A DNA stretch of 61,733 nt from a virus (Duplodnaviria > Heunggongvirae > Uroviricota > Caudoviricetes). The notes under the pieces were generated by a model, which saw nothing but the letters and a program-made list of their open reading frames with translations, was not told the origin of the DNA and made no database searches. The translations under genes and the position numbers were made by a program. Every line of letters begins with the position of its first letter. Within the stretch, counting starts at the first letter, position 1. The stretch lies in the IMG/VR virus record IMGVR_UViG_3300035208_003871. One strand, 5' to 3'. Below, piece by piece: positions 19,911-33,964 of this stretch.

Positions 19911-19912
19911 TT

Positions 19913-20164: not shown

Positions 20165-20165
20165 T

Positions 20166-20676: not shown

Positions 20677-20685
20677 AATTTTTGA

Positions 20686-20757: not shown

Positions 20758-20770
20758 TTTGTGATACATT

Positions 20771-21229: not shown

Positions 21230-21241
21230 CCAAAATTAAGT

Positions 21242-21431
21242 ACAAGTTTGGTAGTTTGTAACGTAAAGTGATTGCACACAAATATTACAAATGGATATAT
21301 ATGCGAACGAAGGAACCAAGTAGCAAATTTACAAATCAGTTCCATATTGTTACCTGTGTAAAGTGCATCAATTAATGTTATTACCGGTGCTTTAGTTATG
21401 TTACAAACGAGGGTGGGTAAGGGGAACTTGT
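21242..21431 (+). ncRNA. Structured RNA candidate directly 3' of the DIP1984-like gene
   Basis: Nested stems ACAAGTT/AACTTGT, GTTTGTAACGTAA/TTATGTTACAAAC, TGATTGCAC/GTGCATCA, GGAAC/GTTCC. Confidence 0.55.
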
Positions 21432-21433
21432 TA

Positions 21434-21514
21434 AGGAATGTGCCCAAGCTTGGTAAGGGGATCGGCTCAAACCCGATTGTGCAGACCTCAGGGGTTCAAA
21501 TCCCTTCATTCCTA
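21434..21514 (+). tRNA. tRNA-Leu(CAA)
   Basis: AGGAATG/CATTCCT, ATCGG-CT CAA AC-CCGAT, variable arm. Confidence 0.85.
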
Positions 21515-21676
21515 TAAATTGTGAAAATATGATAAGACGATGCATTGTGCAATATGTGAAGAAATGTCCAATTCATCATGAAAATGATGTTAGTTTAGCA
21601 GATTATTGTGCTGATTGCGGATATAACAAAGGTATAAAATCACATTACATTTATTGTTCTTTTGGAGATGAAATAG

Positions 21677-22000
21677 ATGATGTTTAACCACAATGAAATA
21701 TCAGAATATACACACGATGAGACAATGAAGAAGGTAATTCCTTATATTACTTCCGATGTTACAATTGTGAAATTAGAAGTACTTGATTTTCAGGTTAATA
21801 ATACTGCACATTCTATGTCAAAGTTCGGAATTCCTGTTGGTCAATATTTTTATCAGGAAATGGCAATGCACATAGATAATATAGTGTCCAATACTACAGG
21901 TCATATAATGGCGTACTACGGTGGAGATAGAATTCCATCAATTGAGTTATGGGATTACACAAATGTACCGATATGCACCTTTTATTTTGTGGTGGTTTAA
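21677..22000 (+). CDS. Hypothetical protein
   Basis: GGAG leader; abuts the next gene. Confidence 0.6.
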   Translation: MMFNHNEISEYTHDETMKKVIPYITSDVTIVKLEVLDFQVNNTAHSMSKFGIPVGQYFYQEMAMHIDNIVSNTTGHIMAYYGGDRIPSIELWDYTNVPICTFYFVVV

Positions 22001-22987
22001 ATGGTTAAAGTATTTTATCATAATGATCCGGACGGTTGGTGTTCGGCGTATTGGGTTCGTAAACACCTCGAAAGTGAAAAGATTCCATTTGAGGCATCAG
22101 ATTTCATCGAAATGAACTACGATAAATCTTTCCCATGGGACAAAATTAATCACATGGGTGAACAAGTTTTCATGGTTGACTTCTCACTCAATGATCCTGA
22201 AGATATGATCAAACTTTCTAAAATGTGTGATTTTACATGGATCGATCACCATAAAACTGCCATCGATAAAATGGGTGAATTTTGTAATAAATCAGGATGG
22301 GAAGAACCTAAAGGTATTCGTATTGATGGTGTTGCAGCCTGTGCTTTAACATGGGTTTATTTACATGGAATTTCATCTGGAAAGTTCACATTAAAAGATA
22401 TTACAACTGCGCATCCAATAAGAGGCGATGTTGTTACCAGTGAGTATATTACTGTTGATACTAATGAGATTGTAATTAGAAAATATACATGGGAATTTGC
22501 GCCATTATTCACGCAATACATCCACCTATGGGATACTTGGCAATGGAAAAATCATCCGGATGCAATGGAAATTAATGAGTTTATCACTGCGTTAAATGCA
22601 TCAAATACACACCCATTATCTATAAATTGGGACGCTCTTAATGAAAGTCAGGAAGTAATCTGTACACTTGTGCAGTCGGGATCTGATATGATTCGATTTC
22701 GTGATGGATATGCAAAAGGGTTGTGTGATTCTATAGGTAAAGTTATCGAATTTGAAGGGCATCGATGTTTTGTATGTAACATGGGACACTGTAATAGCGA
22801 GTGGTTTAAATCAGTAGATCCTTCAACCTATGATATCATGATGCCATTTTATTACAATGTACAAACAGAGCAGTTTTGCATCAGTCTCTACAGTGATAAA
22901 GTAGACGTTAGTAAAATAGCGGTTAAATACGGTGGAGGAGGACATTGCGGAGCTTCTGGCTTTCAATGTAGAAACTTACCTTTCTGA
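22001..22987 (+). CDS. DHH/DHHA1 phosphoesterase
   Basis: YHNDPDG, VDFS, WIDHH and GGGGHCGASGF motifs. Confidence 0.9.
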   Translation: MVKVFYHNDPDGWCSAYWVRKHLESEKIPFEASDFIEMNYDKSFPWDKINHMGEQVFMVDFSLNDPEDMIKLSKMCDFTWIDHHKTAIDKMGEFCNKSGWEEPKGIRIDGVAACALTWVYLHGISSGKFTLKDITTAHPIRGDVVTSEYITVDTNEIVIRKYTWEFAPLFTQYIHLWDTWQWKNHPDAMEINEFITALNASNTHPLSINWDALNESQEVICTLVQSGSDMIRFRDGYAKGLCDSIGKVIEFEGHRCFVCNMGHCNSEWFKSVDPSTYDIMMPFYYNVQTEQFCISLYSDKVDVSKIAVKYGGGGHCGASGFQCRNLPF

Positions 22988-23219
22988 AATAGAAATATTT
23001 TTACGGTAATTTAATAATGACACGTATAAATGTATGTCCGGAATGCAAAACTGAAGTTAAGGAACCATTTTATGTAAATGTTATACAAGATAAGCGTTTA
23101 CCTAATGATTTTCATTATTTTTATCAATGTCCGAAGTGTAAGCGAGTCTTTGTAGAAGTAAATTAGAATGTAAACCCCAAATTATTTATAATTTGGAAAA
23201 CAACAGTTAATGCACATTT

Positions 23220-23339
23220 GCCAGTTTAGCAGAGTAGGAATGCATCCGGCCTGTATTTCAGATGTTCACAAAAAGTGAACAGATAGTAAAAAGTGAACAG
23301 GATACCGGAAGATCGGGGGAGCATAACCCTCAACTGGCT
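23220..23339 (+). tRNA. tRNA-Thr(TGT) with canonical 37/38 BHB intron (23256-23303), C33
   Basis: TCCGG/CCGGA stem; BHB central helix CCTG/CAGG, 3 nt bulges, TTCA/TGAA intron helix; U73. Confidence 0.85.
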
Positions 23340-23340
23340 C

Positions 23341-23412
23341 TCTGCCTTGGTCTAGCAGCAAGGATGATTGACTTTCTATCAATCTGCGTGGGTGCAATTC
23401 CCGCAGGCAGAA
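23341..23412 (+). tRNA. tRNA-Glu(TTC)
   Basis: TCTGCCT/AGGCAGA, ATTGA-CT TTC TA-TCAAT, T-loop TGCAATT. Confidence 0.8.
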
Positions 23413-23435
23413 TAAACGATATTAAACGATAACTA

Positions 23436-23449
23436 TTTTAAGCCGAAGT
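23436..23449 (+). promoter_or_regulatory. TTTTAAGCCGAAGT promoter motif
   Basis: 28 nt upstream of ATG 23464. Confidence 0.55.
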
Positions 23450-23463
23450 GCGTATATAATTAT

Positions 23464-23664
23464 ATGTCACGACTTGATGCACGTATGCAGATTTTTGCTG
23501 ATAGATTAACTGATTCACTTGGTTTAAAGAAAGGAACTCTTATTAAAGATGAAGATATCCAAAAGATTGCAACTGCAACCATGGGTCAGCAGATAACGAT
23601 TAATAACAAAACGATTGCCATTGCACCGGTTATGATTTTTCAGGCAAACAAAATCATGGAATGA
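23464..23664 (+). CDS. Hypothetical protein
   Basis: Follows the promoter motif. Confidence 0.6.
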   Translation: MSRLDARMQIFADRLTDSLGLKKGTLIKDEDIQKIATATMGQQITINNKTIAIAPVMIFQANKIME

Positions 23665-23749
23665 AATAAAGAACATAAATTTACTAAGTAAATTTAATTA
23701 TACACTTTAAAATAATTTATATATTTATAAAATGAATGTATAAGTTAAC

Positions 23750-24067
23750 ATGTTTCAGTACATTAGATTATTTTTATTCTTACAGTTTCTTGATTTAGTT
23801 ACCACATATGCTGATATCACATATGTTATCGGCACATCTGAAGGAAATACATTATGGTCATATTTACTATCGTATATGCCAATTAATATGTACATTATGA
23901 TGATTATAGGTAAATTTGTAGGAATAGTTATGCTATTAACATGCCTTTATATACTAACTATAATCTCAACAAATAAGATTTACAAAACCCTGAATACAGT
24001 AATATTAGCAATGTGTACATTCGTAGTAATTAATAATATAGCCATATTACTCACATATTTCCAATAA
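23750..24067 (+). CDS. Three-TM membrane protein (DUF5658-like)
   Basis: LQFLDLVTT...EGN...K motif with hydrophobic helices. Confidence 0.6.
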   Translation: MFQYIRLFLFLQFLDLVTTYADITYVIGTSEGNTLWSYLLSYMPINMYIMMIIGKFVGIVMLLTCLYILTIISTNKIYKTLNTVILAMCTFVVINNIAILLTYFQ

Positions 24068-24098
24068 TTTTATATTTAATAACGATTCAACTATTATG

Positions 24099-24172
24099 GG
24101 GCGTTTAGCATAGCTGGTTAATGCACTCGGCTCATACCCGAGAGATCATCGGTTCGAACCCGGTATCGCCCA
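24099..24172 (+). tRNA. tRNA with CAT anticodon (Ile2-like or elongator Met)
   Basis: GGGCG acceptor start, CTCGG-CT CAT AC-CCGAG; body resembles archaeal Ile2. Confidence 0.8.
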
Positions 24173-24173
24173 T

Positions 24174-24262
24174 TCGCCTGTAGCCTATAGGACTAAGGCA
24201 CCTGACTTCTAAGTTTATACGAAGATATCAGGATGAGGCGGGTTCAATTCCCGTCAGGCGAG
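24174..24262 (+). tRNA. tRNA-Arg(TCT) with 15 nt BHB intron (24212-24226)
   Basis: CCTGA/TCAGG stem; central helix CTTC/GAAG with 3 nt bulges. Confidence 0.88.
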
Positions 24263-24264
24263 TA

Positions 24265-24633
24265 ATGCAACAGAAAATTACCGGCAATGTATTAATTGTT
24301 GCTGGACCTCGTAACTTTTTTAATCGCGAAATAATTATTGAGAATTTAATCAATGCAATCTGTGACATTAAACCCACCAAGATTATTACCGGAAATGCAA
24401 CCGGTGTAGATCAAATTACTGCCGAATATTGCCATAGTTTAACCGAAATAGAATTTGAAGTGTTTCCTGCAGATTGGGATAAATATGGTAGATCAGCAGG
24501 CCCTCGTAGAAACTGGACTATGGCACTTGCAGGAACTCACCTACTAGCCTTTACAAATGGATCACCCGGAACAAGTAATATGATTTATTTTGCAAAACGT
24601 CATGATTTGGAAATTATCTTTGTAGATATATAA
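24265..24633 (+). CDS. SLOG-superfamily protein (DUF2493/YspA-like)
   Basis: IVAGPRNF, ITGNATGVD, FPADWDKYGRSAGPRRN, AFTNGSPGTSNMI. Confidence 0.85.
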   Translation: MQQKITGNVLIVAGPRNFFNREIIIENLINAICDIKPTKIITGNATGVDQITAEYCHSLTEIEFEVFPADWDKYGRSAGPRRNWTMALAGTHLLAFTNGSPGTSNMIYFAKRHDLEIIFVDI

Positions 24634-24722
24634 AATAAATTTATATACTTTGCCCGAAAATCTCCATGAAAATTAACTTTTTTAATAATTAACAAATAAT
24701 AGTTAACAAACCTATTATATAG

Positions 24723-24736
24723 TTTTAAGCCGAAGT
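24723..24736 (+). promoter_or_regulatory. TTTTAAGCCGAAGT promoter motif
   Basis: 21 nt before ATG 24744; heads the ligase operon. Confidence 0.55.
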
Positions 24737-24743
24737 ATAATGA

Positions 24744-24902
24744 ATGGGAAGAACGTGGCCAGAAGAAGATAAGAAAACATTAAGTGATCTCTACTTAATA
24801 GATCGGCTATTTGCACCTGAAATTGCATTACGAATGGGTCGCGGTGTCGGAGCAGTTCGTATGAAAATTACAGCAATGAATTTGTCCGGAGGTGGATTAT
24901 GA
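24744..24902 (+). CDS. Small HTH/Myb-like protein (below the ORF track cutoff)
   Basis: MGRTWPEEDKKTL...EIALRMGRGVGAVRMK; stop overlaps the ligase start. Confidence 0.6.
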   Translation: MGRTWPEEDKKTLSDLYLIDRLFAPEIALRMGRGVGAVRMKITAMNLSGGGL

Positions 24903-25789
24903 TTAAAAAACCAATGTTGTCGGTAAATGCAGAATTAGATAAAATAAGATACCCAGTACTTGGCACTCCCAAAATCGATGGAATACGCTGTTTGACTACA
25001 GACTTGGGCGCGGTATCTCGAAATATGAAACCAATCCCAAATGCGCATGTTCGTAATATGTTAAATGATCTTCCGGTTGGTTTGGATGGAGAATTAATAG
25101 TTGATAACAATTTTCATCAAACTTCTTCCGGGATCATGAGCAGGGATGGTGAACCAAAATTCACTTACAAAGTATTTGATTATATCATCGACGGTGATAC
25201 AACAATGCCATATAACGAGCGTATGACCCATCTCTTTGAGTTTGCTATGGAAGTTGAACCAGATCCACATTTAAGTGGGTTCATTCAATGTCTTCTCCCA
25301 ATCGAAATACAGACACAGAGTGAATTGTTTGATTATGAAGGAGTGTGTCATGAACTCGGTTACGAGGGCTGTATGATTCGCAAAGTAGATTCTCCATATA
25401 AATCAGGAAGATCTAGTGTTAAGGAAGGATATTTGTTAAAAATAAAGAGGTTCGAAGATGCAGAAGCAGAAATCATTGGGTTCGAAGAGTTACAACGTAA
25501 TCAAAATGCGGCGAAGCGTGACGTGTTCGGCCACATTGACCGGTCAACTTGCAAGGACGGAATGGTTGCAGGACAAACAATGGGCGCGATTAGGGTGCGC
25601 GATTTAAAAACCGGAGTAGAATTTTCCATCGGATCAGGATTTACTGCATCAGATCGTGAAACAATATGGAGTCATCAGGATTTCTACATTGGCAAAGCCA
25701 TAAGTTATAAATTTCAACCCTGTGGCACTAAGGATGCACCACGATTTCCGATATTCAAAGGATTCCGACATCCCAATGACATATCGTAG
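24899..25789 (+). CDS. lig: Minimal ATP-dependent DNA ligase
   Basis: Motif I KIDGIR, LDGEL, VFD, EGCMIR, LLKIK, C-terminal OB fold with IGSGF and RFPIFKGFR. Confidence 0.9.
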   Translation: MIKKPMLSVNAELDKIRYPVLGTPKIDGIRCLTTDLGAVSRNMKPIPNAHVRNMLNDLPVGLDGELIVDNNFHQTSSGIMSRDGEPKFTYKVFDYIIDGDTTMPYNERMTHLFEFAMEVEPDPHLSGFIQCLLPIEIQTQSELFDYEGVCHELGYEGCMIRKVDSPYKSGRSSVKEGYLLKIKRFEDAEAEIIGFEELQRNQNAAKRDVFGHIDRSTCKDGMVAGQTMGAIRVRDLKTGVEFSIGSGFTASDRETIWSHQDFYIGKAISYKFQPCGTKDAPRFPIFKGFRHPNDIS

Positions 25790-26154
25790 AATTTATTCTC
25801 ACATGCGAGGATTGCATGTAGAAAAACATCACTCTCGTGTTTTTCGTGGTATATACAAGTGGATATTATTATCACGAAGGGTTGCACCAAAACTTGGATG
25901 TAAGTATGATGATATTGGAGAACGTGGTCCCGGACGTAATATTAGAAAATTGCGTCCGTGGCGGATGCAATAATCTATAACTTTATTAACTTTTAAGACG
26001 AAGTGTTAGTATGGAATCAGAAGAAAATATAGAATCTAAAATAGTAGAATTACGAGAATTGCTTCGTGTTCCCGGAACCACACCATGCACAGCACGTAAA
26101 ATCGAAGGTCAAATAGAAATTCTCGAATGGGTAATAAGTAATATTGGTGAATAA

Positions 26155-26772
26155 ATGACAAATCCAGATATTGTTGAAATTGTTGCCATTGTTGATAGTT
26201 CCGGATCTATGCAAAGTATCAAGGGTGCAGCTATTGCGGGATTCAATGCATTACTTTATGATCAACAGACATTAATGAATGCAGCAGATGCTATCTTTAC
26301 ATTAGTATTCTTCAATTCTGTGCATTATATGGTCTATGATGCAGTTGATATTGGGGAAGTGAAACCGCTAACCCCAAACACTTACGAATGCGATGGTAAT
26401 ACTGCCATGTATGATGCAATCGGAGACACTATAACCCGCGTTCATAATAAATTCAAAGACATGCCAGAGGACGAAATACCCGGTACAATTTTATTTGTAA
26501 TTATTACCGATGGTGGTGAAAATGATTCTCACAATTACAAGGGAAGTTTACTAAAAGAAATGATAACGCGACTCAAAAGAGAAGATAACTGGATGTTCAG
26601 TTATCTTTCATCTACTAACAATCCCTATGATGAAGCAGAACAAATAGGTATTCCTAATGAAGATGTTCTAAAGCTAAGAACTGGAGCACAGGGTATGCAG
26701 GAAGGTTACGTAAAAATCAGTACTGCATACTCAAATTACCGGACTGGAAAATCCAAGAAAGTAAACCTTTAA
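26155..26772 (+). CDS. vWA domain protein (TerY-like)
   Basis: VDSSGSM MIDAS, TAMYDAIG, IITDGGEN. Confidence 0.85.
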   Translation: MTNPDIVEIVAIVDSSGSMQSIKGAAIAGFNALLYDQQTLMNAADAIFTLVFFNSVHYMVYDAVDIGEVKPLTPNTYECDGNTAMYDAIGDTITRVHNKFKDMPEDEIPGTILFVIITDGGENDSHNYKGSLLKEMITRLKREDNWMFSYLSSTNNPYDEAEQIGIPNEDVLKLRTGAQGMQEGYVKISTAYSNYRTGKSKKVNL

Positions 26773-26816
26773 AATTATTAGACAACCTTTAAATTTTTGT
26801 AAATCTAATTAAATTT

Positions 26817-26890
26817 ACCCGTATAGTGTATCGGATTAATCATTAGGGATCGCGAATCCCTAGAGCGGGGTTCAACTCCCCGTACGGGTG
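26817..26890 (+). tRNA. tRNA-Arg(GCG), C33
   Basis: ACCCGTA/TACGGGT, AGGGA-TC GCG AA-TCCCT, CGGGG TTCAACT CCCCG. Confidence 0.8.
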
Positions 26891-27171
26891 TCTTTTATGA
26901 TTAGGAAATTGTATTTTCTTTTATTTGGTAGGAATCGGCATCGATGGGTGAAATACTATTACAGATATAAAGACCCAATTCGGAATGGATGGGAGTTGTG
27001 TGAATTATGAATGTTAAACGGCGCGCGTGCTGGCATCTTATTGGTTATTGGTGTGCTCGTTGCAATCGAAAAATCGGGTGCAAGTATTTTAGTGGAACAC
27101 ATCCAAGTCCTAATAAATTCCACACTTGGTAAATAATAAATAATAAATGATAAACAAATACATTTATCTAT

Positions 27172-27185
27172 TTTTAAGCCGAAGT
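27172..27185 (+). promoter_or_regulatory. TTTTAAGCCGAAGT promoter motif
   Basis: Upstream of ORF 27191; 28 nt before ATG 27200. Confidence 0.55.
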
Positions 27186-27190
27186 ATAAT

Positions 27191-27997
27191 GTGATAAATA
27201 TGGTTGATATTGTAGCAGGATGTAAACGAGGATATAATTGGTTCAAGGGAATTCTCAAAGCAGTTTGGGAGTTGTTAAAAAAATTATTTCCCAGACCACG
27301 CAAGAGCAGTGGCAAAAATAGTGGAAAAAATAGTGGAAAAAGTCAGAAAAAGCAAAATTGTGGAGATCAACAAGATGATTCGGGACAAAACGACTCAGGA
27401 GAGGATGGAGATGGCAATCAGGAATGTGACGGAAGCCAGAGCGGAGGCAATAATGGTGACGAGAGCAATGGATCTTGTGACAGTGCTAATAAAGATGCAA
27501 CAGAGGAATCTGAGAATAATGCCGATGTATCCGGCACTTCAACCGAGCGCAGCGATCAAATCAGATCTGCGCAAGATACTGCGCGAGATAAGTTTCACAG
27601 ACGAGTAGAAGAGGCTGAAGAACGAGGAGAATTCGATACCGTAGATACTGAAGAATATGGTGCCATTGAAGATCCCAATTCCAATGAAGAAGCATTTGAA
27701 GAGTCTGAAGAATTAATTGAAGAATCTGATGAATTAGGTAAATCAGGTGAATCAGGAAGTGGTGGCAGCGATGAATTCTATGAACCAACCATAACCGGTA
27801 AAAAACTGAGTATGGTGGAAGCAGCATTAGCAGAAGCATTTACTAATGAGGAAACATCTGATGAGGAAACCGTAATTACAAACGGGACAAGCAGCGGAAG
27901 TGAAGTTGAATTGATTGACACTTCTGAATTACAGAATGCGCGCAGACTCACCGTTATTCCCAATCAAAGACGAGAAACTCGTGCTGTCTACGATTAA
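27191..27997 (+). CDS. Acidic low-complexity protein with amphipathic N-terminus
   Basis: WFKGILKAVWELLKKLF followed by a D/E/S/G/N-rich region; SGKN repeats. Confidence 0.7.
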   Translation: MINMVDIVAGCKRGYNWFKGILKAVWELLKKLFPRPRKSSGKNSGKNSGKSQKKQNCGDQQDDSGQNDSGEDGDGNQECDGSQSGGNNGDESNGSCDSANKDATEESENNADVSGTSTERSDQIRSAQDTARDKFHRRVEEAEERGEFDTVDTEEYGAIEDPNSNEEAFEESEELIEESDELGKSGESGSGGSDEFYEPTITGKKLSMVEAALAEAFTNEETSDEETVITNGTSSGSEVELIDTSELQNARRLTVIPNQRRETRAVYD

Positions 27998-27999
27998 AA

Positions 28000-28203
28000 T
28001 TGATAACCATGGCACAAATTAAAACTTACCCAACTTTAATGGCAGTTATTTCTGCTAATCATTATCAAATATGTAAATGGTATAGATTTCTTCGTTCTCC
28101 CGAAACATCCGAAGAAGTAGATATTAACAATGAAATTTGTGAAAGACTTAAAAAATTTGGTGGTTTTACTCCGGAGATATCTAAATCGATTGGATGGAAA
28201 TAA
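28000..28203 (+). CDS. Conserved phage-type hypothetical protein
   Basis: QICKWYRFLRSP...GGFTPEISKSIGW. Confidence 0.65.
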   Translation: MITMAQIKTYPTLMAVISANHYQICKWYRFLRSPETSEEVDINNEICERLKKFGGFTPEISKSIGWK

Positions 28204-28264
28204 AATACAACCAAATAACGAAAATTTTTAATATTAGGATATCAAACATTATTACGTAACATCT

Positions 28265-28336
28265 GCTTCATTGGGCCAAAAGGTAAGCTTGCTGGTTTGG
28301 GACCAGTAGAAGACGGAGCGTTACCGTCATGAAGCA
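28265..28336 (+). tRNA. tRNA-Pro(TGG), atypical T-loop
   Basis: GCTTCAT/ATGAAGC, GCTGG-TT TGG GA-CCAGT, GACGG AGCGTTA CCGTC. Confidence 0.8.
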
Positions 28337-28337
28337 T

Positions 28338-28606
28338 CCCCACTTCCGAGGTTCTATTGCAGAACGACATGTGGTTTATCGGGTGAAACGGATCGGCCCG
28401 GTACGCTGGATAGCAAGTGTGACACGCAGGTTACCTTCGCCGTAGGAGTGCTATCAGAAGGTGTATACCGTAGCAGTGGCATCGTAAGCCCAAAGACTTG
28501 CTGCATAGGTCGAAGAGTCAGGCCCTTGACGATATACAAAAGTAAATCAACAGAAACTGCCAGCATCCGAGTGTTATTTGAATTTGGGTTCAATTTAACA
28601 CTTTTT
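28338..28606 (+). ncRNA. Large structured, pseudoknotted ncRNA candidate
   Basis: GC-rich non-coding tract with many helices, two H-type pseudoknots and a terminal AGTGTTA/TAACACT hairpin plus T run. Confidence 0.55.
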
Positions 28607-28765
28607 ATTGGTGAAATTATGAGTGATGAATACGAAGAAGATAAATCAAAAGTCAAGAATGAAATGACTGGTAGAATTGAAGATCGTGCTACTGGTAGTG
28701 ACTATGCTGATGGTGGCGCGATGTACAGTAAAGTCTATAAGAAGAAAGATTAACTTCTTCATTTT

Positions 28766-28839
28766 GGAACTGTAGCAAAATTGGGAAGTGCGTACGTTTG
28801 AAGGGCGTAATATTATGAGTTCGAATCTCATCAGTTCCG
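28766..28839 (+). tRNA. tRNA-Phe(GAA)
   Basis: GGAACTG/CAGTTCC, TACGT-TT GAA GG-GCGTA, ATGAG TTCGAAT CTCAT. Confidence 0.78.
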
Positions 28840-28841
28840 TC

Positions 28842-28954
28842 ACTGAAAGGTTGGGTTGATAAGGGTTACTTCGGTATTTATGGTTCGAATCCATGACTCT
28901 CTGATCAGGGAGTATAAAAGACAAAACACCTGAGTCGAAAGATCTCCTTTCGGT
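28842..28954 (+). ncRNA. Y-RNA-like module U5 with YrlA-type T arm and loop-closed acceptor stem
   Basis: Motif strands as in U1; inside TATGG TTCGAAT CCATG then ACTCTCT-GATC-AGGGAGT (7 bp). Confidence 0.82.
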
Positions 28955-28973
28955 TTAAGTTTTTAAAAAAGTT

Positions 28974-29309
28974 TTAATTGATAATGAACATTCCACCATC
29001 GTCATCTTCGTTCATTAAATTCATTAAATTCAGAATTATTTCTTCATATTCTAAATTATTAGAATAACATCCCAAAAAGTACGATAAGTACATCTTTTGC
29101 TGTATAGTTAAATCCTCGATGTATGCTATTTGTGACATTAACTCTAATGGATCAACAACATCAACCGTATGGTATCTTTTACACAAAAATTTACCTAACA
29201 TTACCATTAACTTATTAAAATATACTTCATCTATATCGTAAGGCGTCCCTTTAATTGTAAAAATCTTCGGGGGCTTCTCTTTCTCCATCACTTTGATCAC
29301 CGTCCTCAT
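28974..29309 (-). CDS. Hypothetical protein
   Basis: 111 aa minus-strand ORF. Confidence 0.6.
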   Translation of the reverse strand: MRTVIKVMEKEKPPKIFTIKGTPYDIDEVYFNKLMVMLGKFLCKRYHTVDVVDPLELMSQIAYIEDLTIQQKMYLSYFLGCYSNNLEYEEIILNLMNLMNEDDDGGMFIIN

Positions 29310-29694
29310 TCAATTTTTTATAATGTTTGACCACCGTATCCATATTCCATCGTTTACTTTCTTTATCAATCAACGTGCATTTAACTGAGTCATCTCCAAC
29401 AGTTTGCCACTCAGTACATTTCCATGACATGAAACAAATTAATTGAAAATCATTCATTAATTCCGGAATAAAACCACATAACTCGCTATTTAATATATAC
29501 GGGGAATCCAATAACTTTGAAGTTTCTATTACCTGTCCATAACTTTGCCAGTAAGGGCAACGCATCTCATTTATGCAGCCGTTAACGCATCTAATCGATT
29601 TCGAATGCCCTACGCTATATGGACACACAACATTCATAAACTGCATTGTTTCTTTATCATATATAACATATATAATATTATAAGCTTGAAACAT
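29251..29694 (-). CDS. Hypothetical protein with Cys motifs
   Basis: Minus-strand ORF; start uncertain. Confidence 0.55.
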   Translation of the reverse strand: MFQAYNIIYVIYDKETMQFMNVVCPYSVGHSKSIRCVNGCINEMRCPYWQSYGQVIETSKLLDSPYILNSELCGFIPELMNDFQLICFMSWKCTEWQTVGDDSVKCTLIDKESKRWNMDTVVKHYKKLNEDGDQSDGEREAPEDFYN

Positions 29695-29751
29695 TGCATT
29701 TATAAATTCATAACAGAAAGAATTATATGGTAAAGTAACAAATGTTTAACT

Positions 29752-30348
29752 ATGGTCAATTCAAAGTTGATTGAAATGGTTTGTATCATTGACAAATCAG
29801 GATCGATGAGTCCATTTAAAGGAGATTCTATTGGAAGTTTTAATACGTTTCTTAACGAGCAAAAGAATCTTAAATCTGATATAAACGCACTGTTTACAAT
29901 GGTGCAATTTAATACTGGTTATGATATTGTTCATAATGGTATACCAATCCAAAATGTTCCAGAATTAAATGATGCAACATATTGCTGCGTTGGTTGTACC
30001 GCGTTATATGATGCTGTTGGAAAGGCGATTGATACTATTGGAAACCGATTATCAAACACACACGAAGATCAGCGTCCTTCAAAAGTTATTGTTACTATTT
30101 TAACTGATGGTGAAGAGAACTCATCAATGGAATATAATAGTGAAAAGATTAAAAAGATGATTAAAACCCAAACCGAAGACTTTCAATGGGAATTCATTTA
30201 TTTATCCGCAAGTCCAAATGCATTCAGGGATTCTGCTGCAATGGGGATAAGTGCCCAGCAAACACAAACCGTAAATCTTAGTTCCACAAGAGGAATAAAA
30301 GACAGTTACGCAACAATTAGTTCTTGCTATTCATCATATCGAAATTAG
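29752..30348 (+). CDS. vWA domain protein (TerY-like), paralogue of 26155..26772
   Basis: IDKSGSM, TALYDAVG, ILTDGEENSS. Confidence 0.85.
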   Translation: MVNSKLIEMVCIIDKSGSMSPFKGDSIGSFNTFLNEQKNLKSDINALFTMVQFNTGYDIVHNGIPIQNVPELNDATYCCVGCTALYDAVGKAIDTIGNRLSNTHEDQRPSKVIVTILTDGEENSSMEYNSEKIKKMIKTQTEDFQWEFIYLSASPNAFRDSAAMGISAQQTQTVNLSSTRGIKDSYATISSCYSSYRN

Positions 30349-30458
30349 AATAGATTTATATATTAATATAGTTAAGTTATAACTGGAGCACGTAGTGTGC
30401 CCAAAGTAATGATAATCAGCGAGTCAGACCTTTTGAGGCTGATGACCTGCTCAACTTT

Positions 30459-30546
30459 GAGAATGTGGCTGAGCTTGGCAGAAAGCACCAGACTTAAGAT
30501 CTGGCACCAAAGGGTAAACGCACCGGTTCAAGTCCGGTCATTCTCA
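30459..30546 (+). tRNA. tRNA-Leu(TAA)
   Basis: GAGAATG/CATTCTC, CCAGA-CT TAA GA-TCTGG, variable arm. Confidence 0.88.
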
Positions 30547-30608
30547 TCAATAATGACCATTTTGTTGACGCCAACAAATTGATCTAAAATCCATTAGTTT
30601 TAAAAACT

Positions 30609-30682
30609 GGACGTGTAGCACAACTGGATAGTGCATTCTCCTGATACGGGAAAGATTTGGGGTTCAAATCCTCTCGCGTCCA
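30609..30682 (+). tRNA. tRNA-Ile(GAT)
   Basis: GGACGTG/CGCGTCC, TTCTC-CT GAT AC-GGGAA. Confidence 0.85.
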
Positions 30683-30685
30683 TTT

Positions 30686-30758
30686 GGGTGCGTAGCATAA
30701 TAGATAGTGCATCACCCTTCGAAGGTGAGTGGTAAGGGTGCAACTCCCTTCGTGCCCG
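30686..30758 (+). tRNA. tRNA-Arg(TCG)
   Basis: TCACC-CT TCG AA-GGTGA, T-loop TGCAACT. Confidence 0.82.
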
Positions 30759-30762
30759 TTTT

Positions 30763-30978
30763 ATGTCCAGAACCAAGCGAATCTATAATAAAATACGACG
30801 CAGGATGTATCACGGATATTACTTATTTTATCATCCTTATATAGAATGGTGTTGTGGCAATTGCAGTTCTTGTCGTAAACATAAAATAAAGGAAAATAAA
30901 AAACGCAAAACAAATAAACTTCGCGAATTTCATAAATTATTAATCGATGAAAATGTCCCGTACAGTAAGAACCTATAA
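30763..30978 (+). CDS. Small very basic protein (MSRTKR...)
   Basis: K/R rich; YHPY motif shared with the next ORF. Confidence 0.6.
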   Translation: MSRTKRIYNKIRRRMYHGYYLFYHPYIEWCCGNCSSCRKHKIKENKKRKTNKLREFHKLLIDENVPYSKNL

Positions 30979-31147
30979 CAAACCTTCATTTTACAAAAGA
31001 AATAGAATGTTTGGATATCATCCATATCGTCAATATAACATTTCAAAATTTTGGTTGTCTGATTATGGTGTAACTAAGCGCGGTGAGAGTAAATCCCGAC
31101 GATTACGATATCTTCACCAAATGTTAACTGACATCAATAATCTATAA
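30947..31147 (+). CDS. Small very basic protein (MSRTVR...), tandem paralogue
   Basis: MSRTxRxYNK...YHPY shared with the previous ORF. Confidence 0.6.
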   Translation: MKMSRTVRTYNKPSFYKRNRMFGYHPYRQYNISKFWLSDYGVTKRGESKSRRLRYLHQMLTDINNL

Positions 31148-31153
31148 ATATTT

Positions 31154-31348
31154 TTGCAACTCATATTATTTATGAAACTTATCCAGATACCGGTAATTGT
31201 ATTCTTAATAGCAGCAAGTATGCAGCTTGGAATCATTGTAACAGGACATTCATTAGATCAACTTGGATCTGGCTTGTGGGTTGGTTTAGCAATGCTATGG
31301 GCAATAAATTGCCTAATAATTACCAGACAACTATTATATAATTACTAA
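31154..31348 (+). CDS. Small two-TM membrane protein
   Basis: Two hydrophobic helices. Confidence 0.5.
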   Translation: MQLILFMKLIQIPVIVFLIAASMQLGIIVTGHSLDQLGSGLWVGLAMLWAINCLIITRQLLYNY

Positions 31349-31429
31349 AAACCCTAAATAATTACCATATAATCACTATCAAATAAGTAAATATTTAAGT
31401 ATAAACAAACAATATTGTAGTAGCGAACT

Positions 31430-31502
31430 GGAAGCGTCGTATAACGGTTTATTATCCTGCCCCGTCACGGCAGGGATTCGGGTTCGACTCCCGGCGTTTC
31501 CG
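31430..31502 (+). tRNA. tRNA-Asp(GTC), C33
   Basis: CTGCC-CC GTC AC-GGCAG, G73. Confidence 0.85.
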
Positions 31503-31556
31503 TCTGTCTATAGGGATCGCGATTAAAACAACAGTTCACCTATAGACAATTAAATT

Positions 31557-31642
31557 GCCGTCATATTCAAGTGGTATGGAACTGGTCCTGAAAACCAGCG
31601 CTCTGAAACAGTGGGTCGAAGGTTCAAATCCTTCTGGCGGCG
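31557..31642 (+). tRNA. tRNA-Ser(TGA), C33
   Basis: CTGGT-CC TGA AA-ACCAG, long variable arm, G73. Confidence 0.85.
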
Positions 31643-31648
31643 CTTTCT

Positions 31649-31734
31649 GACATGGTAGGCAAGTAGGTATGCCGCCGATCTGCTAAGTCGGTGCTCTGAA
31701 ATATGGGTCAGGAGTTCAAATCTCCTTCATGTCG
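31649..31734 (+). tRNA. tRNA-Ser(GCT)
   Basis: CCGAT-CT GCT AA-GTCGG, long variable arm, G73. Confidence 0.85.
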
Positions 31735-31742
31735 TACACCAT

Positions 31743-31857
31743 TCCGTGGGTGGTGAAAAAAAAACTAAAACGAGGTGTTTGAAACCCTCAACTCAACCCG
31801 AAGGAAAACAGGTGATTAACGGTGTTAATCAAAACCAAAACTTAAGGATACCACGGA
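31743..31857 (+). ncRNA. Multibranch RNA candidate within the tRNA operon
   Basis: TCCGTGG/CCACGGA closing stem enclosing GAGG/CCTC and TGATTAAC/GTTAATCA hairpins. Confidence 0.45.
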
Positions 31858-31869
31858 TATCCAATAATT

Positions 31870-31942
31870 GGATGAGTAGCAATTGTGGTAAAAGCGAATG
31901 GCTGTTAACCATTTAATGAGGGTTCGACTCCTTCCTCTTCCG
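31870..31942 (+). tRNA. tRNA-Asn(GTT)
   Basis: AATGG-CT GTT AA-CCATT, G73. Confidence 0.82.
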
Positions 31943-31946
31943 CTCA

Positions 31947-32018
31947 CTCAGTTTGGTATATCGGCTGTTGCCCTTGGCTGTAGACCAAGAGAACCCGGTT
32001 CAACTCCGGGAACTGAGA
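31947..32018 (+). tRNA. tRNA-Tyr(GTA), archaeal C1-G72 type
   Basis: CTCAGTT/AACTGAG, CTTGG-CT GTA GA-CCAAG, short variable loop, A73. Confidence 0.85.
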
Positions 32019-32030
32019 TCTCGTAAGTTT

Positions 32031-32102
32031 GCGTTGGTAGTTCAATGGTAGAATGTCTGCCCTCCAAGCAGAATGTTGGGAGTTCGATCCTCCCTCAGCG
32101 CA
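32031..32102 (+). tRNA. tRNA-Gly(TCC), C33
   Basis: GCG start, TCTGC-CC TCC AA-GCAGA. Confidence 0.85.
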
Positions 32103-32163
32103 CTCTCATTTCAATGAACTGCTGAAGGTCGATGCATCCAGTAGAGAAATGAGGAAATCAAGA

Positions 32164-32239
32164 AGCGAGATAGGCTAGCTAGGATCAGGCCGCCGGACCC
32201 ATGATCCGGTATTCTCCAGTTCGAATCTGGATCTCGCTA
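32164..32239 (+). tRNA. Initiator-like tRNA-Met(CAT), C33
   Basis: AGCGAGA/TCTCGCT (A1-U72), CCGGA-CC CAT GA-TCCGG; only two of the three initiator G-C pairs. Confidence 0.75.
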
Positions 32240-32256
32240 TCTCTCCAAAATGAAGA

Positions 32257-32329
32257 ACTGCTATGGGGAAAATGGCAATCCTGTAAGTCTTTGGAACTTA
32301 CGTTCTCGGTTCGAATCCGAGTAGCAGAA
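32257..32329 (+). tRNA. tRNA-Gln(TTG)
   Basis: TAAGT-CT TTG GA-ACTTA, CTCGG TTCGAAT CCGAG; 1-72 mismatch. Confidence 0.78.
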
Positions 32330-32371
32330 TACACGGAAAGTATAAATTGCATAAAAATAAATAATTTAGAA

Positions 32372-32443
32372 AGGATACTGGTTTATCGGTAATAATACAA
32401 GGTTCTGACCCTTGTGAGCGTGGTTCGACTCCACGGTATCCTA
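32372..32443 (+). tRNA. tRNA-Gln(CTG)
   Basis: AGGATAC/GTATCCT, CAAGG-TT CTG AC-CCTTG. Confidence 0.82.
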
Positions 32444-32449
32444 TAAAAG

Positions 32450-32908
32450 TTATATTCTCATTAAAAACTGATCCATTGGATGACCTGTTTCTAACCCTTC
32501 ATATGTATATCCAACATGTATTGGGAATATTGGACTTGTTCTAGAATCCTCACCACCAATTATAAAGTTTTTCCACAAGAATTCATTTGATGAATTTAAC
32601 ATGAAAAACGATCTCATATTTTCTGCCACCCAATGAATATAAATTTCAGCACCAATCGATTCATTAGAACGATCTCCTTTCCAATCAGATCTGCTCTTAA
32701 TAAAATCCCCGATTACTTTTGATTTTTCAACATTTGCAACACCATACGGTTCTTTAAAATAAACTAACATTTGACCATTTTTATCTGTAGTTGTCTGAAA
32801 GTCAATGCGCTCAATTACATCACTAATACTTGGATCAATATCGTCACCTTCATATCTCACAACTTCTTTTTTTGTGTATGTATCAATTAATTTTATCATA
32901 ATAATCAC
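32450..32908 (-). CDS. Hypothetical protein
   Basis: 152 aa minus-strand ORF. Confidence 0.7.
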   Translation of the reverse strand: MIIMIKLIDTYTKKEVVRYEGDDIDPSISDVIERIDFQTTTDKNGQMLVYFKEPYGVANVEKSKVIGDFIKSRSDWKGDRSNESIGAEIYIHWVAENMRSFFMLNSSNEFLWKNFIIGGEDSRTSPIFPIHVGYTYEGLETGHPMDQFLMRI

Positions 32909-32920
32909 CTTACTAAACGA

Positions 32921-33139
32921 TTATTTAAATACTTTGAATTTTTTAAGATATTCGACAATCATCTTGTTATATTGGTTTTCTTTTGGAATAGTAAACGACT
33001 GAAAACTGTCTGCGCCCGCATCCTTGTACGTTATTTTAATTTTCCCATCATCAAATCCCACAAAAGTTACCGTGTATTTTTCCTCTACCATGTAATAATA
33101 TACAACAATACCCGTTAATAATACTAGAGCCAATAGCAA
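32921..33139 (-). CDS. Small membrane-anchored protein
   Basis: N-terminal TM helix. Confidence 0.6.
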   Translation of the reverse strand: MLLALVLLTGIVVYYYMVEEKYTVTFVGFDDGKIKITYKDAGADSFQSFTIPKENQYNKMIVEYLKKFKVFK

Positions 33140-33219
33140 ATAAACTGAAAAAACCGAATAAACCGTGAAATAACCAAAAGGTTAATATATAACCTCGAAC
33201 AATTTATACTAATAATCCC

Positions 33220-33291
33220 GGATCATTGAGGTAATGGGAATCCGACAGTCCTCCAGAGTCTGTAATGTAGGTTCGATTCCTACATGGTCCA
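33220..33291 (+). tRNA. tRNA-Trp(CCA)
   Basis: GGATCAT/ATGGTCC, CAGTC-CT CCA GA-GTCTG (one U-U pair). Confidence 0.75.
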
Positions 33292-33294
33292 TTT

Positions 33295-33369
33295 GGGCAA
33301 GTAGTTCCAATTAGATAGAACGCTGGATTTGCAATTCAGAGGCTCCGGGGGCAGATCCCGGCTTGTCCA
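33295..33369 (+). tRNA. tRNA-Ala(TGC)
   Basis: G3-U70 pair, CTGGA-TT TGC AA-TTCAG, atypical T-loop GGCAGAT. Confidence 0.82.
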
Positions 33370-33422
33370 TAAACATCATACAACATCAAAAATTTAATAT
33401 ACTCTTAAGCCGAAGTATATGT

Positions 33423-33716
33423 ATGATAATGAACTTTGATAATCCTCAGTGGGATGACTTCCTAGACCGGTTATATGGTCCTGAAGGTTGCAACTTCCAG
33501 TATGATGCAGATGGCAAACCTACATGGGTTTGCAAAGCTGGCAATGATAAAACATATGCGACACTTATCCTGCAAGATATGGGATTATCCAAAGAAGAAA
33601 TTATCAAATCATGTGAGTTTTTCGATGAAAACGGAGGACATTGCGATTGCGAAATAATCTGGAATGTTGCAAGACATAATCCAAATTGTTTCGATAATGA
33701 AACCTCTAACGAATAA
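33423..33716 (+). CDS. DUF2695-like protein
   Basis: EFFDENGGHCDCEIIWNV; preceded by TCTTAAGCCGAAGT. Confidence 0.75.
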   Translation: MIMNFDNPQWDDFLDRLYGPEGCNFQYDADGKPTWVCKAGNDKTYATLILQDMGLSKEEIIKSCEFFDENGGHCDCEIIWNVARHNPNCFDNETSNE

Positions 33717-33733
33717 ATTTAAATGAATAAACT

Positions 33734-33805
33734 GGAATCATAATGTAGTGGATTGCATAGTTGGCCCTTAACCAACTTGTGAGGGTTCGAGTCCCTCTGG
33801 TTCCG
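33734..33805 (+). tRNA. tRNA-Lys(CTT), C33
   Basis: GTTGG-CC CTT AA-CCAAC. Confidence 0.82.
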
Positions 33806-33808
33806 TCA

Positions 33809-33881
33809 GGGTTTGTGATGTAACGGCTTTGCATGTCAGACTTTTAATCTGATTGTCAGGGTTCGACCCCCTGCAGACCCG
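33809..33881 (+). tRNA. tRNA-Lys(TTT)
   Basis: GGGTTTG/CAGACCC, TCAGA-CT TTT AA-TCTGA. Confidence 0.88.
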
Positions 33882-33893
33882 CTTTCAATGTGC

Positions 33894-33964
33894 AGAGGAT
33901 TAAGCTAGTGGTAAACTGGAGCGCTTACATCGCTCATTCGTGGGTTCAATTCCCTCATCCTCTA
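33894..33964 (+). tRNA. tRNA-Val(TAC)
   Basis: AGAGGAT/ATCCTCT, GAGCG-CT TAC AT-CGCTC. Confidence 0.82.

What the first reader, a model, noticed from the sequence alone, without database searches (positions are those of the whole stretch)
23220..33805. Seven tRNAs carry C33 instead of the near-invariant U33
Seen, anticodon loops: Thr CCTGTAA (after splicing), Arg TCGCGAA, Asp CCGTCAC, Ser CCTGAAA, Gly CCTCCAA, iMet CCCATGA, Lys CCCTTAA. All have otherwise intact cloverleaves. Established: U33 forms the anticodon U-turn, and C33 is known mainly from some eukaryotic initiator tRNAs. C-to-U tRNA editing exists in archaea (position 8, Methanopyrus). Inference: seven independent changes at one position indicate selection, such as escape from an anticodon nuclease that reads U33, or dependence on C33-to-U editing. 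No deaminase is visible in this window.
Basis: partly seen in the sequence, partly recalled or inferred. Interest (0 to 1): 0.72.

Follow-up and report, generated by a model that had tools for sequence, protein, structure and literature searches.

The report
Archaeal virus tRNAs with C33
Seven of the thirty transfer-RNA genes of this uncultured archaeal virus have a C where almost every known tRNA has a U, next to the anticodon. The excess is real and non-random and recurs in other viruses, but its purpose (probably to avoid host enzymes that read that U) is untested.

Summary
All seven named tRNAs (Thr-UGU, Arg-GCG, Asp-GUC, Ser-UGA, Gly-UCC, Met-CAU, Lys-CUU) have C33 in a 7-nt loop on a perfect 5-bp stem, and all pass the Rfam tRNA model. 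That is 7 of 30 tRNAs. Three independent assemblies give the same sequence, and a 97%-identical strain keeps C33 in tRNA-Arg.

This is not general decay. In these 28 tRNAs position 33 deviates in 6 of 28, against 9 of 308 cells at eleven other conserved positions. Six of the seven are otherwise canonical.

- **Cellular controls:** two Methanomicrobiales tRNA sets have U33 in 92 of 94.
- **Viral background:** about 2.5% C33.
- **Closest relative:** it shares only the Thr C33. That Thr C33 is kept in four viruses of the clade and was verified in 61 other viral contigs, but was found in none of 201 Methanomicrobiales genomes.
- **Initiator tRNA:** C33 copies do occur in 6 of those 201 genomes.

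I found no deaminase in the window and no RNA data. Nuclease escape and editing therefore remain untested. Published work shows that U33C blocks Cm32, Elongator and t6A enzymes.

This scan has noted C33-rich viral tRNA sets before on other DNA. I rate it a new variant of a known kind, of moderate interest.

The parts
23220..23339 (+). tRNA-Thr(UGU), C33 at 23251. It carries a 48-nt intron (23256-23303) at the canonical 37/38 site and has the T loop AGCATAA.
   Evidence: Rfam RF00005 scores 37.8 bits over model positions 1-71. The alignment to the intron-less C33 orthologues in L084 and L093 places the insert exactly after A37. RNAfold pairs loop CCTGT with intron ACAGG, between two 3-nt bulges. 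ARAGORN does not call it.
26817..26890 (+). tRNA-Arg(GCG), loop TCGCGAA, C33 at 26851.
   Evidence: ARAGORN. Rfam 45.7 bits. The T loop is canonical, TTCAACT. C33 is kept in the 97%-identical strain L087/L088.
31430..31502 (+). tRNA-Asp(GUC), loop CCGTCAC, C33 at 31463. It is the only Asp tRNA of the virus.
   Evidence: ARAGORN. Rfam 43.8 bits. The T loop is canonical, TTCGACT.
31557..31642 (+). tRNA-Ser(UGA), loop CCTGAAA, C33 at 31588, with a long variable arm.
   Evidence: ARAGORN. Rfam 51.2 bits. The same loop recurs in other viral contigs that also carry a C33 Thr.
32031..32102 (+). tRNA-Gly(UCC), loop CCTCCAA, C33 at 32062. It is the only Gly tRNA of the virus.
   Evidence: ARAGORN. Rfam 61.8 bits.
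32164..32239 (+). Initiator-like tRNA-Met(CAU), loop CCCATGA (C33 at 32199, G37), with an A1:U72 pair.
   Evidence: ARAGORN. Rfam 52.1 bits. The same loop occurs in an initiator copy of a Methanomicrobiales genome, L345.
33734..33805 (+). tRNA-Lys(CUU), loop CCCTTAA, C33 at 33766. The neighbouring tRNA-Lys(UUU) has U33.
   Evidence: ARAGORN. Rfam 54.9 bits.
19236..33964 (+). The virus's whole tRNA region: 30 tRNA genes, all on the + strand. The other 23 have U33.

Best explanation
These are working tRNA genes of a roughly 155-kb tailed virus of an archaeon, possibly a member of the Methanomicrobiales. The virus carries a near-complete tRNA set of its own.

In seven of them U33 has been replaced by the other pyrimidine. 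I think C33 is kept by selection because it removes a nucleotide that host enzymes acting on the anticodon loop must read.

The most likely benefit is that the viral tRNAs stay usable when the host attacks or disables its own tRNA pool during infection. This could work in two ways:
- directly, if an anticodon-loop nuclease needs U33; or
- indirectly, because C33 prevents the U33-dependent modifications (Cm32, xm5U34, t6A37) that such nucleases often require.

**Shown:** C33 is present, stable and position-specific; it recurs in relatives and in unrelated viruses; it is absent from the matching elongator tRNA of the putative host order.

**Inferred:** that these tRNAs decode, that C33 is adaptive, and which host factor is avoided.
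For: 1. **Position-specific excess in otherwise canonical tRNAs.** Position 33 deviates in 6/28, against 9/308 at U8, G18G19, Y32, R37, G53, T54, T55, C56, R57, A58 and C61 (p = 6e-4). The six ARAGORN-called C33 tRNAs have canonical T loops, GG and U8.
2. **Only C is seen,** never a purine.
3. **Thr-UGU keeps the loop CCTGTAA in four viruses** whose PolB is only 37-63% identical and whose anticodon stems have all changed: window, L084, L093, L174.
4. **Thr C33 is frequent in viruses and missing from the host order.**
   - A C33 Thr-UGU was verified in 61 IMG/VR contigs: 43 distinct sequences, contig GC 27-66%.
   - The Methanomicrobiales Thr-UGU arm has U33 in every match from 66 of 71 genomes, although position 32 varies U/C.
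   - The C33 form was found in 0 of 201 genomes.
5. **C33 clusters by genome.** Distinct other tRNAs have C33 in 12/145 in contigs with a C33 Thr, against 12/485 in contigs with a U33 Thr (odds ratio 3.6, p = 0.005).
6. **The C33 tRNAs serve heavily used codons.** They read the virus's commonest codons in their families (ACA 39%, UCA 47%, GGA 48%) and are its only Thr, Asp and Gly tRNAs.
7. **Published biochemistry.** U33C abolishes archaeal TrmJ (PMC4105751), Elongator activity (PMC11096365) and t6A formation by bacterial and yeast enzymes (PMC8887486). Phage tRNAs with anticodon-arm changes do escape host tRNases (PMC10264068, PMC12409363).
Against: - No nuclease, host or RNA data are in hand.
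- The known escape mutations of phage tRNAs lie elsewhere: U39 and A41 for AriB (PMC12409363).
- One well-studied anticodon nuclease, gamma-toxin, cuts C33 substrates as well as U33 ones (PMC2275089).
- Five of the seven C33s are not shared with the closest relative L084, so they are young and could be drift.
- In viral tRNAs at large, deviation at position 33 (2.9%) is no higher than at other conserved positions (1.6-6.6%). That fits generally relaxed constraint.
- The archaeal virus HGTV-1 has 36 tRNAs and no C33.
- C33 initiator copies exist in cellular Methanomicrobiales, so at least that one needs no viral explanation.
Confidence: 0.38

Rival explanations
1. Tolerated drift. Viral tRNAs back up host tRNAs and so are under weak purifying selection. 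C33 is the mildest possible change at this site: it is still a pyrimidine, and eukaryotic initiators function with it. It therefore accumulates without serving any purpose.
For: - Five of the seven C33s are absent from the closest relative, and syntenic tRNA pairs are only 51-92% identical, so turnover is fast.
- Viral tRNAs in general deviate by 1.6-6.6% at every conserved position, including 2.9% at position 33.
- This virus also has odd T loops and D loops in other tRNAs.
- HGTV-1 has none.
Against: - In this virus position 33 deviates about seven times more often than the other conserved positions, and it does so in tRNAs that are otherwise canonical.
- C arises here in a 35%-GC genome, which I infer runs against its compositional drift.
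- Thr C33 is retained across four deeply diverged viruses and 43 distinct viral sequences.
- C33 co-occurs within genomes.
Confidence: 0.3
2. Modification tuning for decoding. C33 keeps host Elp3, TrmJ and KEOPS off the viral tRNAs. U34 in Thr-UGU, Ser-UGA and Gly-UCC would then stay unmodified and could read all four codons of its box. One viral tRNA per family would suffice for an AT-rich genome.
For: - U33C blocks these enzymes in vitro (PMC4105751, PMC11096365, PMC8887486).
- Three of the seven are U34 tRNAs of four-codon boxes, and each is the virus's only tRNA for that box, although the U- and C-ending codons together make up 40-54% of use (ACT+ACC 54%, TCT+TCC 40%, GGT+GGC 46%).
- None of the five split-box U34 tRNAs (Lys-UUU, Glu-UUC, Gln-UUG, Leu-UAA, Arg-UCU) has C33.
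- Thr-UGU and Ser-UGA are the commonest C33 tRNAs in other viruses.
Against: - Four of the seven have G34 or C34, for which this gives no benefit.
- 3 of 8 against 0 of 5 is not significant.
- C33 Gln-UUG occurs in other viruses.
- The requirements of the archaeal enzymes of the real host are unknown.
Confidence: 0.17
3. Editing dependence. The C is deaminated to U after transcription, as CDAT8 restores U8 in Methanopyrus kandleri. The mature tRNAs would then be ordinary.
For: There is a genomic C at an otherwise invariant U position in several tRNAs. The Methanopyrus precedent is from my own knowledge.
Against: - No [HC]AE...PCxxC motif was found in any frame of the window.
- No deaminase or THUMP domain was found in 40 ORFs scanned.
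- The putative host order encodes U33 in its own tRNAs, so it would have no use for such an enzyme.
- C33 recurs in phages of very different GC content, and many of those tRNAs look bacterial.
- About 93 kb of the genome was not readable here.
Confidence: 0.05
4. Non-decoding roles. Some of these genes are decoys, regulators or decaying copies rather than translating tRNAs.
For: - Thr has a degenerate T loop and an insert.
- The same virus carries tRNA-shaped RNAs fused to Y-RNA-like modules next to a Ro60 gene (earlier notes).
Against: - Six of the seven are canonical at all other conserved positions.
- They are the sole viral tRNAs for Asp, Gly and Thr, and they match the virus's top codons.
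- Sequences are identical in three assemblies.
Confidence: 0.07

Closest known systems
Phage tRNAs proposed or shown to resist host tRNases: mycobacteriophage cluster C1 tRNAs against VapC/MazF (PMC10264068), and T5 tRNA-Lys/Thr/Asn against the PARIS nuclease AriB (PMC12409363, PMC11464382)
   Same: These are virus-encoded near-complete tRNA sets whose anticodon arms differ from the host's at a few positions while the rest of the tRNA stays canonical. Thr-UGU and a tRNA-Lys are among the tRNAs concerned, although here the Lys is Lys-CUU and the viral Lys-UUU keeps U33.
   Different: The known escape changes lie at the cleavage or recognition sites (for example U39 and A41 for AriB), not at the near-universal U33. 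The hosts are bacterial, and resistance was measured or predicted against a named nuclease. Here no nuclease is known.
Cytoplasmic initiator tRNA-Met of multicellular eukaryotes, which carries C33 (PMC8887486)
   Same: C33 sits in a functional tRNA. The viral Met-CAU also has the A1:U72 pair typical of archaeal and eukaryotic initiators.
   Different: In eukaryotes C33 is confined to the initiator. Here six elongator tRNAs carry it. The viral Met also has G37 and only two of the three G:C pairs in the anticodon stem.
Chromosomal initiator tRNA copies with C33 in Methanomicrobiales
   Same: They are archaeal with A1:U72. The loop is CCCATAA, or CCCATGA, which is identical to the viral loop.
   Different: They occur in cellular genomes and affect the initiator only. 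In 3 of the 6 genomes they sit beside a U33 copy, and in 5 of 6 the genome also has a U33 copy. They are rare (6 of 201 genomes).
tRNA cluster of the haloarchaeal tailed virus HGTV-1 (NC_021328)
   Same: It is a large archaeal tailed virus with about 36 tRNAs, one of them with an intron.
   Different: It has no C33 at all: 33 U33 and 3 apparent A33. Its host lineage is different.
CDAT8 C8-to-U8 editing of Methanopyrus kandleri tRNAs (from my own knowledge)
   Same: A genomic C stands at a structurally invariant U position in many tRNAs of one genome.
   Different: The position is different. That system has a dedicated deaminase-THUMP enzyme encoded by the organism. None was found here, and no RNA evidence exists.

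Membership tests
tRNA (Rfam RF00005) | Cloverleaf matching the covariance model above the gathering score of 29 bits | tested here: met
   All seven score 37.8-61.8 bits over model positions 1-71.
tRNA (Rfam RF00005) | Seven-nucleotide anticodon loop on a 5-bp stem, with U33 | tested here: not met
   The loop and stem are canonical, but position 33 is C in all seven.
tRNA (Rfam RF00005) | Conserved tertiary positions U8, G18G19, G53, T54, T55, C56, A58, C61 | tested here: met
   All are present in the six ARAGORN-called C33 tRNAs. Thr is the exception, with T loop AGCATAA.
Nuclease-insensitive viral tRNAs | Virus-encoded tRNA that differs from the host's counterpart in the anticodon arm | tested here: inconclusive
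   Thr-UGU differs at position 33 from every Methanomicrobiales Thr-UGU arm seen. However, the host is only guessed, from PolB similarity of 27-29%.
Nuclease-insensitive viral tRNAs | The changed position is a determinant of cleavage by a host tRNase, and the viral tRNA resists it | not testable with these tools
   No nuclease has been identified. gamma-toxin is indifferent to C33 (PMC2275089).
Initiator tRNA of archaeal/eukaryotic type | A1:U72 pair | tested here: met
   Met 32164-32239 starts AGCGAGA and ends TCTCGCTA.
Initiator tRNA of archaeal/eukaryotic type | Three consecutive G:C pairs at 29-31/39-41, and A37 | tested here: not met
   The stem is CCGGA/TCCGG, giving G29, G30 and A31:U39. 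Position 37 is G.
C-to-U edited tRNAs (CDAT8 type) | A cytidine deaminase able to act on tRNA is encoded by the virus or the host | tested here: inconclusive
   None was found in the 62-kb window by motif or by Pfam. The rest of the genome and the host could not be examined.
C-to-U edited tRNAs (CDAT8 type) | The mature RNA shows U where the DNA has C | not testable with these tools
   No RNA run holds the stretch.
Archaeal intron-containing pre-tRNA (bulge-helix-bulge) | Intron at position 37/38, with a helix flanked by two 3-nt bulges | tested here: met
   In Thr, the insert lies exactly after A37. The minimum-energy fold pairs CCTGT with ACAGG between the bulges ATT and ATA. Arg-UCU has a 15-nt intron at the same site.

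The most novel reading that the evidence does not exclude
C33 is a convergent, virus-specific stealth mark. A single pyrimidine swap at the most conserved anticodon-loop position makes viral tRNAs invisible to a whole class of host enzymes that use U33 as their handle (anticodon nucleases, Elp3, TrmJ, KEOPS). Viruses of both archaea and bacteria would have hit on it repeatedly, most often in Thr-UGU and Ser-UGA.
Probability: 0.3. Interest if true: 0.8.

Novelty: new variant of a known kind. Interest (0 to 1): 0.55.

Why it matters
U33 is one of the most conserved nucleotides in biology, and several tRNA-modifying enzymes use it as their recognition handle. A virus in which nearly a quarter of the tRNAs replace it challenges that rule, especially when the matching host-order tRNA never does. 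A Thr-UGU with C33 also recurs in dozens of unrelated viral contigs.

If C33 is adaptive, it would be a one-nucleotide counter-defence or decoding switch, and a new determinant to test for tRNA-targeting immune nucleases. It would also give a simple sequence signature for telling viral from cellular tRNAs.

If it is only tolerated, it measures how far the U-turn rule can bend in a working translation system.

I found no paper in the held library that describes C33 as a feature of viral tRNAs.

Tried and rejected
- **GenBank phages.** BLAST of the tRNA array found no relative, only 51-nt tRNA-Gly matches.
- **PolB searches of IMG/VR.** As a single protein and as an alignment, these gave no close relative. 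Relatives came only through ligase and PolB homologues in Logan, ENA and JGI contigs.
- **Exact search of 596 Gb of genomes** for the Thr anticodon arm with C or U at position 33: no hit.
- **RNA evidence.** No RNA holder is listed for the stretch. The four runs laid were DNA contigs. The table of differences was cut off before the main array, so position 33 in the X3/X4 strain was not read directly. One X3 contig spans 30553-34100 with only 4 differing letters.
- **Host assignment by spacer-like matches.** 20 kb of the window against 201 Methanomicrobiales genomes gave only chance-level hits. The host remains a guess.
- **Named cultured phages with a C33 Thr-UGU.** The two I checked (Escherichia phage JES2013, Synechococcus phage S-SM1) have U33.
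- **Deaminase.** No CDA motif in six frames and no relevant Pfam domain in 40 ORFs.

Ideas I rejected:
- *C33 exists to pair with the Thr intron.* C32-C33 do pair with GG of the intron, but L084, L093 and L174 have the same C33 without any intron.
- *C33 is part of general decay.* The other conserved positions are intact.
- *The loop register was misread.* All loops are 7 nt on perfect 5-bp stems.
- *The strong Ser-UGA/Thr-UGU co-occurrence (10 of 14) is independent evidence.* It comes largely from one family of near-identical contigs, so I use only the de-duplicated figure.

Full report
**What is there.** The window is part of a roughly 155-kb uncultured tailed virus. It encodes a family-B DNA polymerase, a Ro60/TROVE protein, an anaerobic ribonucleotide reductase, an ATP-dependent ligase and glycosyltransferases.

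Between 19236 and 33964 it carries 30 tRNA genes, all on the + strand. ARAGORN. A tRNA-Thr at 23220-23339 is found only by Rfam (37.8 bits). A tRNA-Pro at about 28264-28340 is 100% identical to the ARAGORN-called tRNA-Pro of a relative.

Several tRNA features point to an archaeal host:
- Introns lie exactly at position 37/38, 48 nt in Thr and 15 nt in Arg-UCU. The Thr intron folds into a helix between two 3-nt bulges.
- There is an Arg-GCG tRNA rather than Arg-ACG.
- One Met tRNA has A1:U72.

Earlier notes of this scan reached the same view from a histone gene and archaeal promoters. The nearest cellular PolB genes (27-29% identity) are nearly all from Methanomicrobiales. That is only a hint of the host. 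A spacer-like search of 201 genomes of that order found nothing.

**The observation.** The other 23 tRNAs have U33. All seven pass the Rfam tRNA model.

The sequence is not an assembly artefact. Three assemblies from different samples are identical over the region, and a strain 97% identical keeps C33 in Arg-GCG. Logan contigs of landfill and groundwater runs hold it too.

**Is it more than chance?** I compared conserved positions using ARAGORN's structure strings.
- In this virus position 33 deviates in 6 of 28 tRNAs. Eleven other conserved positions together deviate in 9 of 308 cells (p = 6e-4).
- The six ARAGORN-called C33 tRNAs have canonical T loops, G18G19 and U8.
- The tRNAs with odd T and D loops (Glu-UUC, Arg-UCG, Ala-UGC, Pro) are different genes. 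Only Thr combines both oddities.

For cellular controls I read the full tRNA sets of a Methanospirillum and a Methanocorpusculum genome. Of 94 tRNAs, 92 have U33. One exception is a spurious call and one is an initiator copy. A further 22 of 22 tRNAs near archaeal PolB genes have U33.

For a viral background I used IMG/VR contigs picked by a U33 Thr-UGU pattern. Among their other tRNAs 12 of 534 (2.2%) have C33. Against that rate, six or more among 29 has p = 4e-5.

**Relatives.** The closest relative (L084, ligase 82% identical) has a syntenic array of 24 tRNAs. Only Thr-UGU has C33 there. Its Arg-GCG, Ser-UGA, Gly-UCC, Met and Lys-CUU have U33. Partner genes are only 51-92% identical, so these tRNAs turn over quickly and single substitutions cannot be traced. 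Two further relatives have U33 in 4 of 4 and 10 of 10 tRNAs.

Thr-UGU is different. The loop CCTGTAA is kept in the window, L084, L093 and L174, although PolB identity falls to 37-39% and all four anticodon stems differ. So one of the seven C33s is old and retained, and the others are specific to this lineage. The 143-kb relative has a C33 His-GUG.

**Beyond the clade.** A pattern for Thr-UGU with C32-C33 matched 94 IMG/VR contigs. ARAGORN verified a Thr-UGU with the loop CCTGTAA in 61 of them, as 43 distinct sequences. The contigs range from 27% to 66% GC, and many of the tRNAs have an encoded CCA and bacterial-looking D arms.

Contigs with a C33 Thr are richer in C33 elsewhere: 12 of 145 distinct tRNAs against 12 of 485 (odds ratio 3.6, p = 0.005). 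Ser-UGA and Asn-GUU lead.

In viral tRNAs at large, deviation at position 33 (2.9%) is no greater than at other conserved positions (1.6-6.6%). What stands out is therefore the concentration in some genomes and some isoacceptors, not the mere existence of C33.

The cultured archaeal virus HGTV-1 has 36 tRNAs and no C33.

**The putative host order.**
- The Methanomicrobiales Thr-UGU arm was matched in 66 of 71 genomes. Position 32 was U or C, and position 33 was always U.
- The C33 form was found in none of 201 genomes.
- The initiator arm has U33 in 144 of 201 genomes and C33 in 6. In three of the six the C33 copy lies beside a U33 copy on the chromosome.
- One genome has an initiator copy with the loop CCCATGA, the same as the viral Met.

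C33 in the viral initiator-like tRNA therefore has a cellular archaeal counterpart. For the one elongator tRNA tested across the order (Thr-UGU), and in the two full cellular tRNA sets, C33 does not.

**Mechanism.** Nothing in the data shows function directly. The literature establishes four relevant points:
- U33C abolishes Cm32 formation by the archaeal TrmJ of Sulfolobus (PMC4105751).
- It abolishes acetyl-CoA hydrolysis and U34 modification by Elongator (PMC11096365).
- It abolishes t6A37 formation by bacterial TsaBCDE and yeast KEOPS (PMC8887486).
- gamma-toxin cuts C33 substrates normally (PMC2275089).

Phage tRNAs with anticodon-arm changes are known or proposed to escape host tRNases (PMC10264068, PMC12409363), though at other positions.

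My best reading (0.38) is that C33 is selected because it takes the viral tRNAs out of reach of a host factor that reads U33. Most likely that factor is a defence nuclease, acting directly or through the modifications it depends on.

The rivals are:
- tolerated drift under weak constraint (0.30);
- modification tuning that lets one U34 tRNA read a whole codon box (0.17);
- non-decoding roles (0.07);
- editing back to U (0.05).

The C33 tRNAs read the virus's commonest codons (ACA, UCA, GGA) and are its only Thr, Asp and Gly tRNAs. That argues they matter to the virus.

No deaminase motif or domain is present in the window, but about 93 kb of the genome could not be read.

**Novelty.** I found no paper in the held library that treats C33 as a feature of viral tRNAs. 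The general idea of nuclease-insensitive phage tRNAs is published.

This scan has reported C33-rich viral or mobile-element tRNA sets on other DNA several times. My independent samples agree with their picture of a low viral background and near absence from cells.

I therefore class this as a new variant of a known kind. The case is well documented, at the high end of the range, and comes from an archaeal virus. Two useful additions are the conserved C33 Thr-UGU and the cellular C33 initiator copies.

Noticed in passing
L342-L347 (Methanomicrobiales genomes G047, G037, G025, G073, G067, G005): Six of 201 Methanomicrobiales genomes carry chromosomal initiator tRNA-Met copies with C33. In three of them these lie beside a U33 copy (G025 has three C33 copies and one U33 copy, 110-124 nt apart). 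One copy (G073) also has G37, giving the loop CCCATGA. As far as I know, C33 initiators are described only for multicellular eukaryotes.
   Followed up: partly
window 23341-23412, 30685-30759, 33294-33370; also 23220-23339 and about 28264-28340: Glu-UUC, Arg-UCG and Ala-UGC lack G18G19 in the D loop. They also have non-canonical T loops (TGCAATT, TGCAACT, GGCAGAT), which looks like coupled change of the D-loop/T-loop contact. Thr and Pro have AGC-type T loops (AGCATAA, AGCGTTA). The relative L084 shows the same tendency: 6 of 24 lack T55 and 6 of 24 lack GG.
   Followed up: partly
window about 28264-28340: A tRNA-Pro(UGG) is missed by ARAGORN and by Rfam in this window, yet it is 100% identical to the ARAGORN-called tRNA-Pro of relative L084, while the flanks differ. 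This indicates strong conservation of an unusual tRNA.
   Followed up: partly
window 23256-23303 and 24173-24263: There are two tRNA introns at the canonical 37/38 site. One is a 48-nt intron in Thr that holds a direct repeat (AAAAAGTGAACAG twice) and a hairpin. The other is a 15-nt intron in Arg-UCU, which ARAGORN without intron mode misreads as tRNA-Pyl(CUA). The Thr orthologues in L084, L093 and L174 have no intron.
   Followed up: partly
window 19755-19910 and 44030-44168: Two tRNA-shaped genes carry large inserts that share a common core motif. The second lies just upstream of the Ro60/TROVE gene (44226-45752). Earlier notes read them as Y-RNA-like modules. I did not study them here.
   Followed up: no
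IMG/VR loci L350-L443: A tRNA-Thr(UGU) with the loop CCTGTAA (C33) was verified in 61 viral contigs, as 43 distinct sequences, with contig GC from 27% to 66%. A family of about 15 near-identical contigs from one sample pairs it with a C33 Ser-UGA. L451 has four C33 tRNAs (Ala, Asn, Val, His) beside a U33 Thr.
   Followed up: partly
L348/L349 (HGTV-1, NC_021328, 47537-52168): In ARAGORN's register three HGTV-1 tRNAs have A at position 33: Cys-GCA with loop CAGCAGA, a second Ile-GAU with CAGATGG, and Ala-AGC with TAAGCCA. I did not check whether the registers are right.
   Followed up: no
window 20165-20239: tRNA-His has T at position -1 and A at position 73, instead of the G-1:C73 usually encoded in prokaryotes. 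Several other viral tRNAs are also drawn by ARAGORN with an 8-bp acceptor stem that starts with a T at -1.
   Followed up: no
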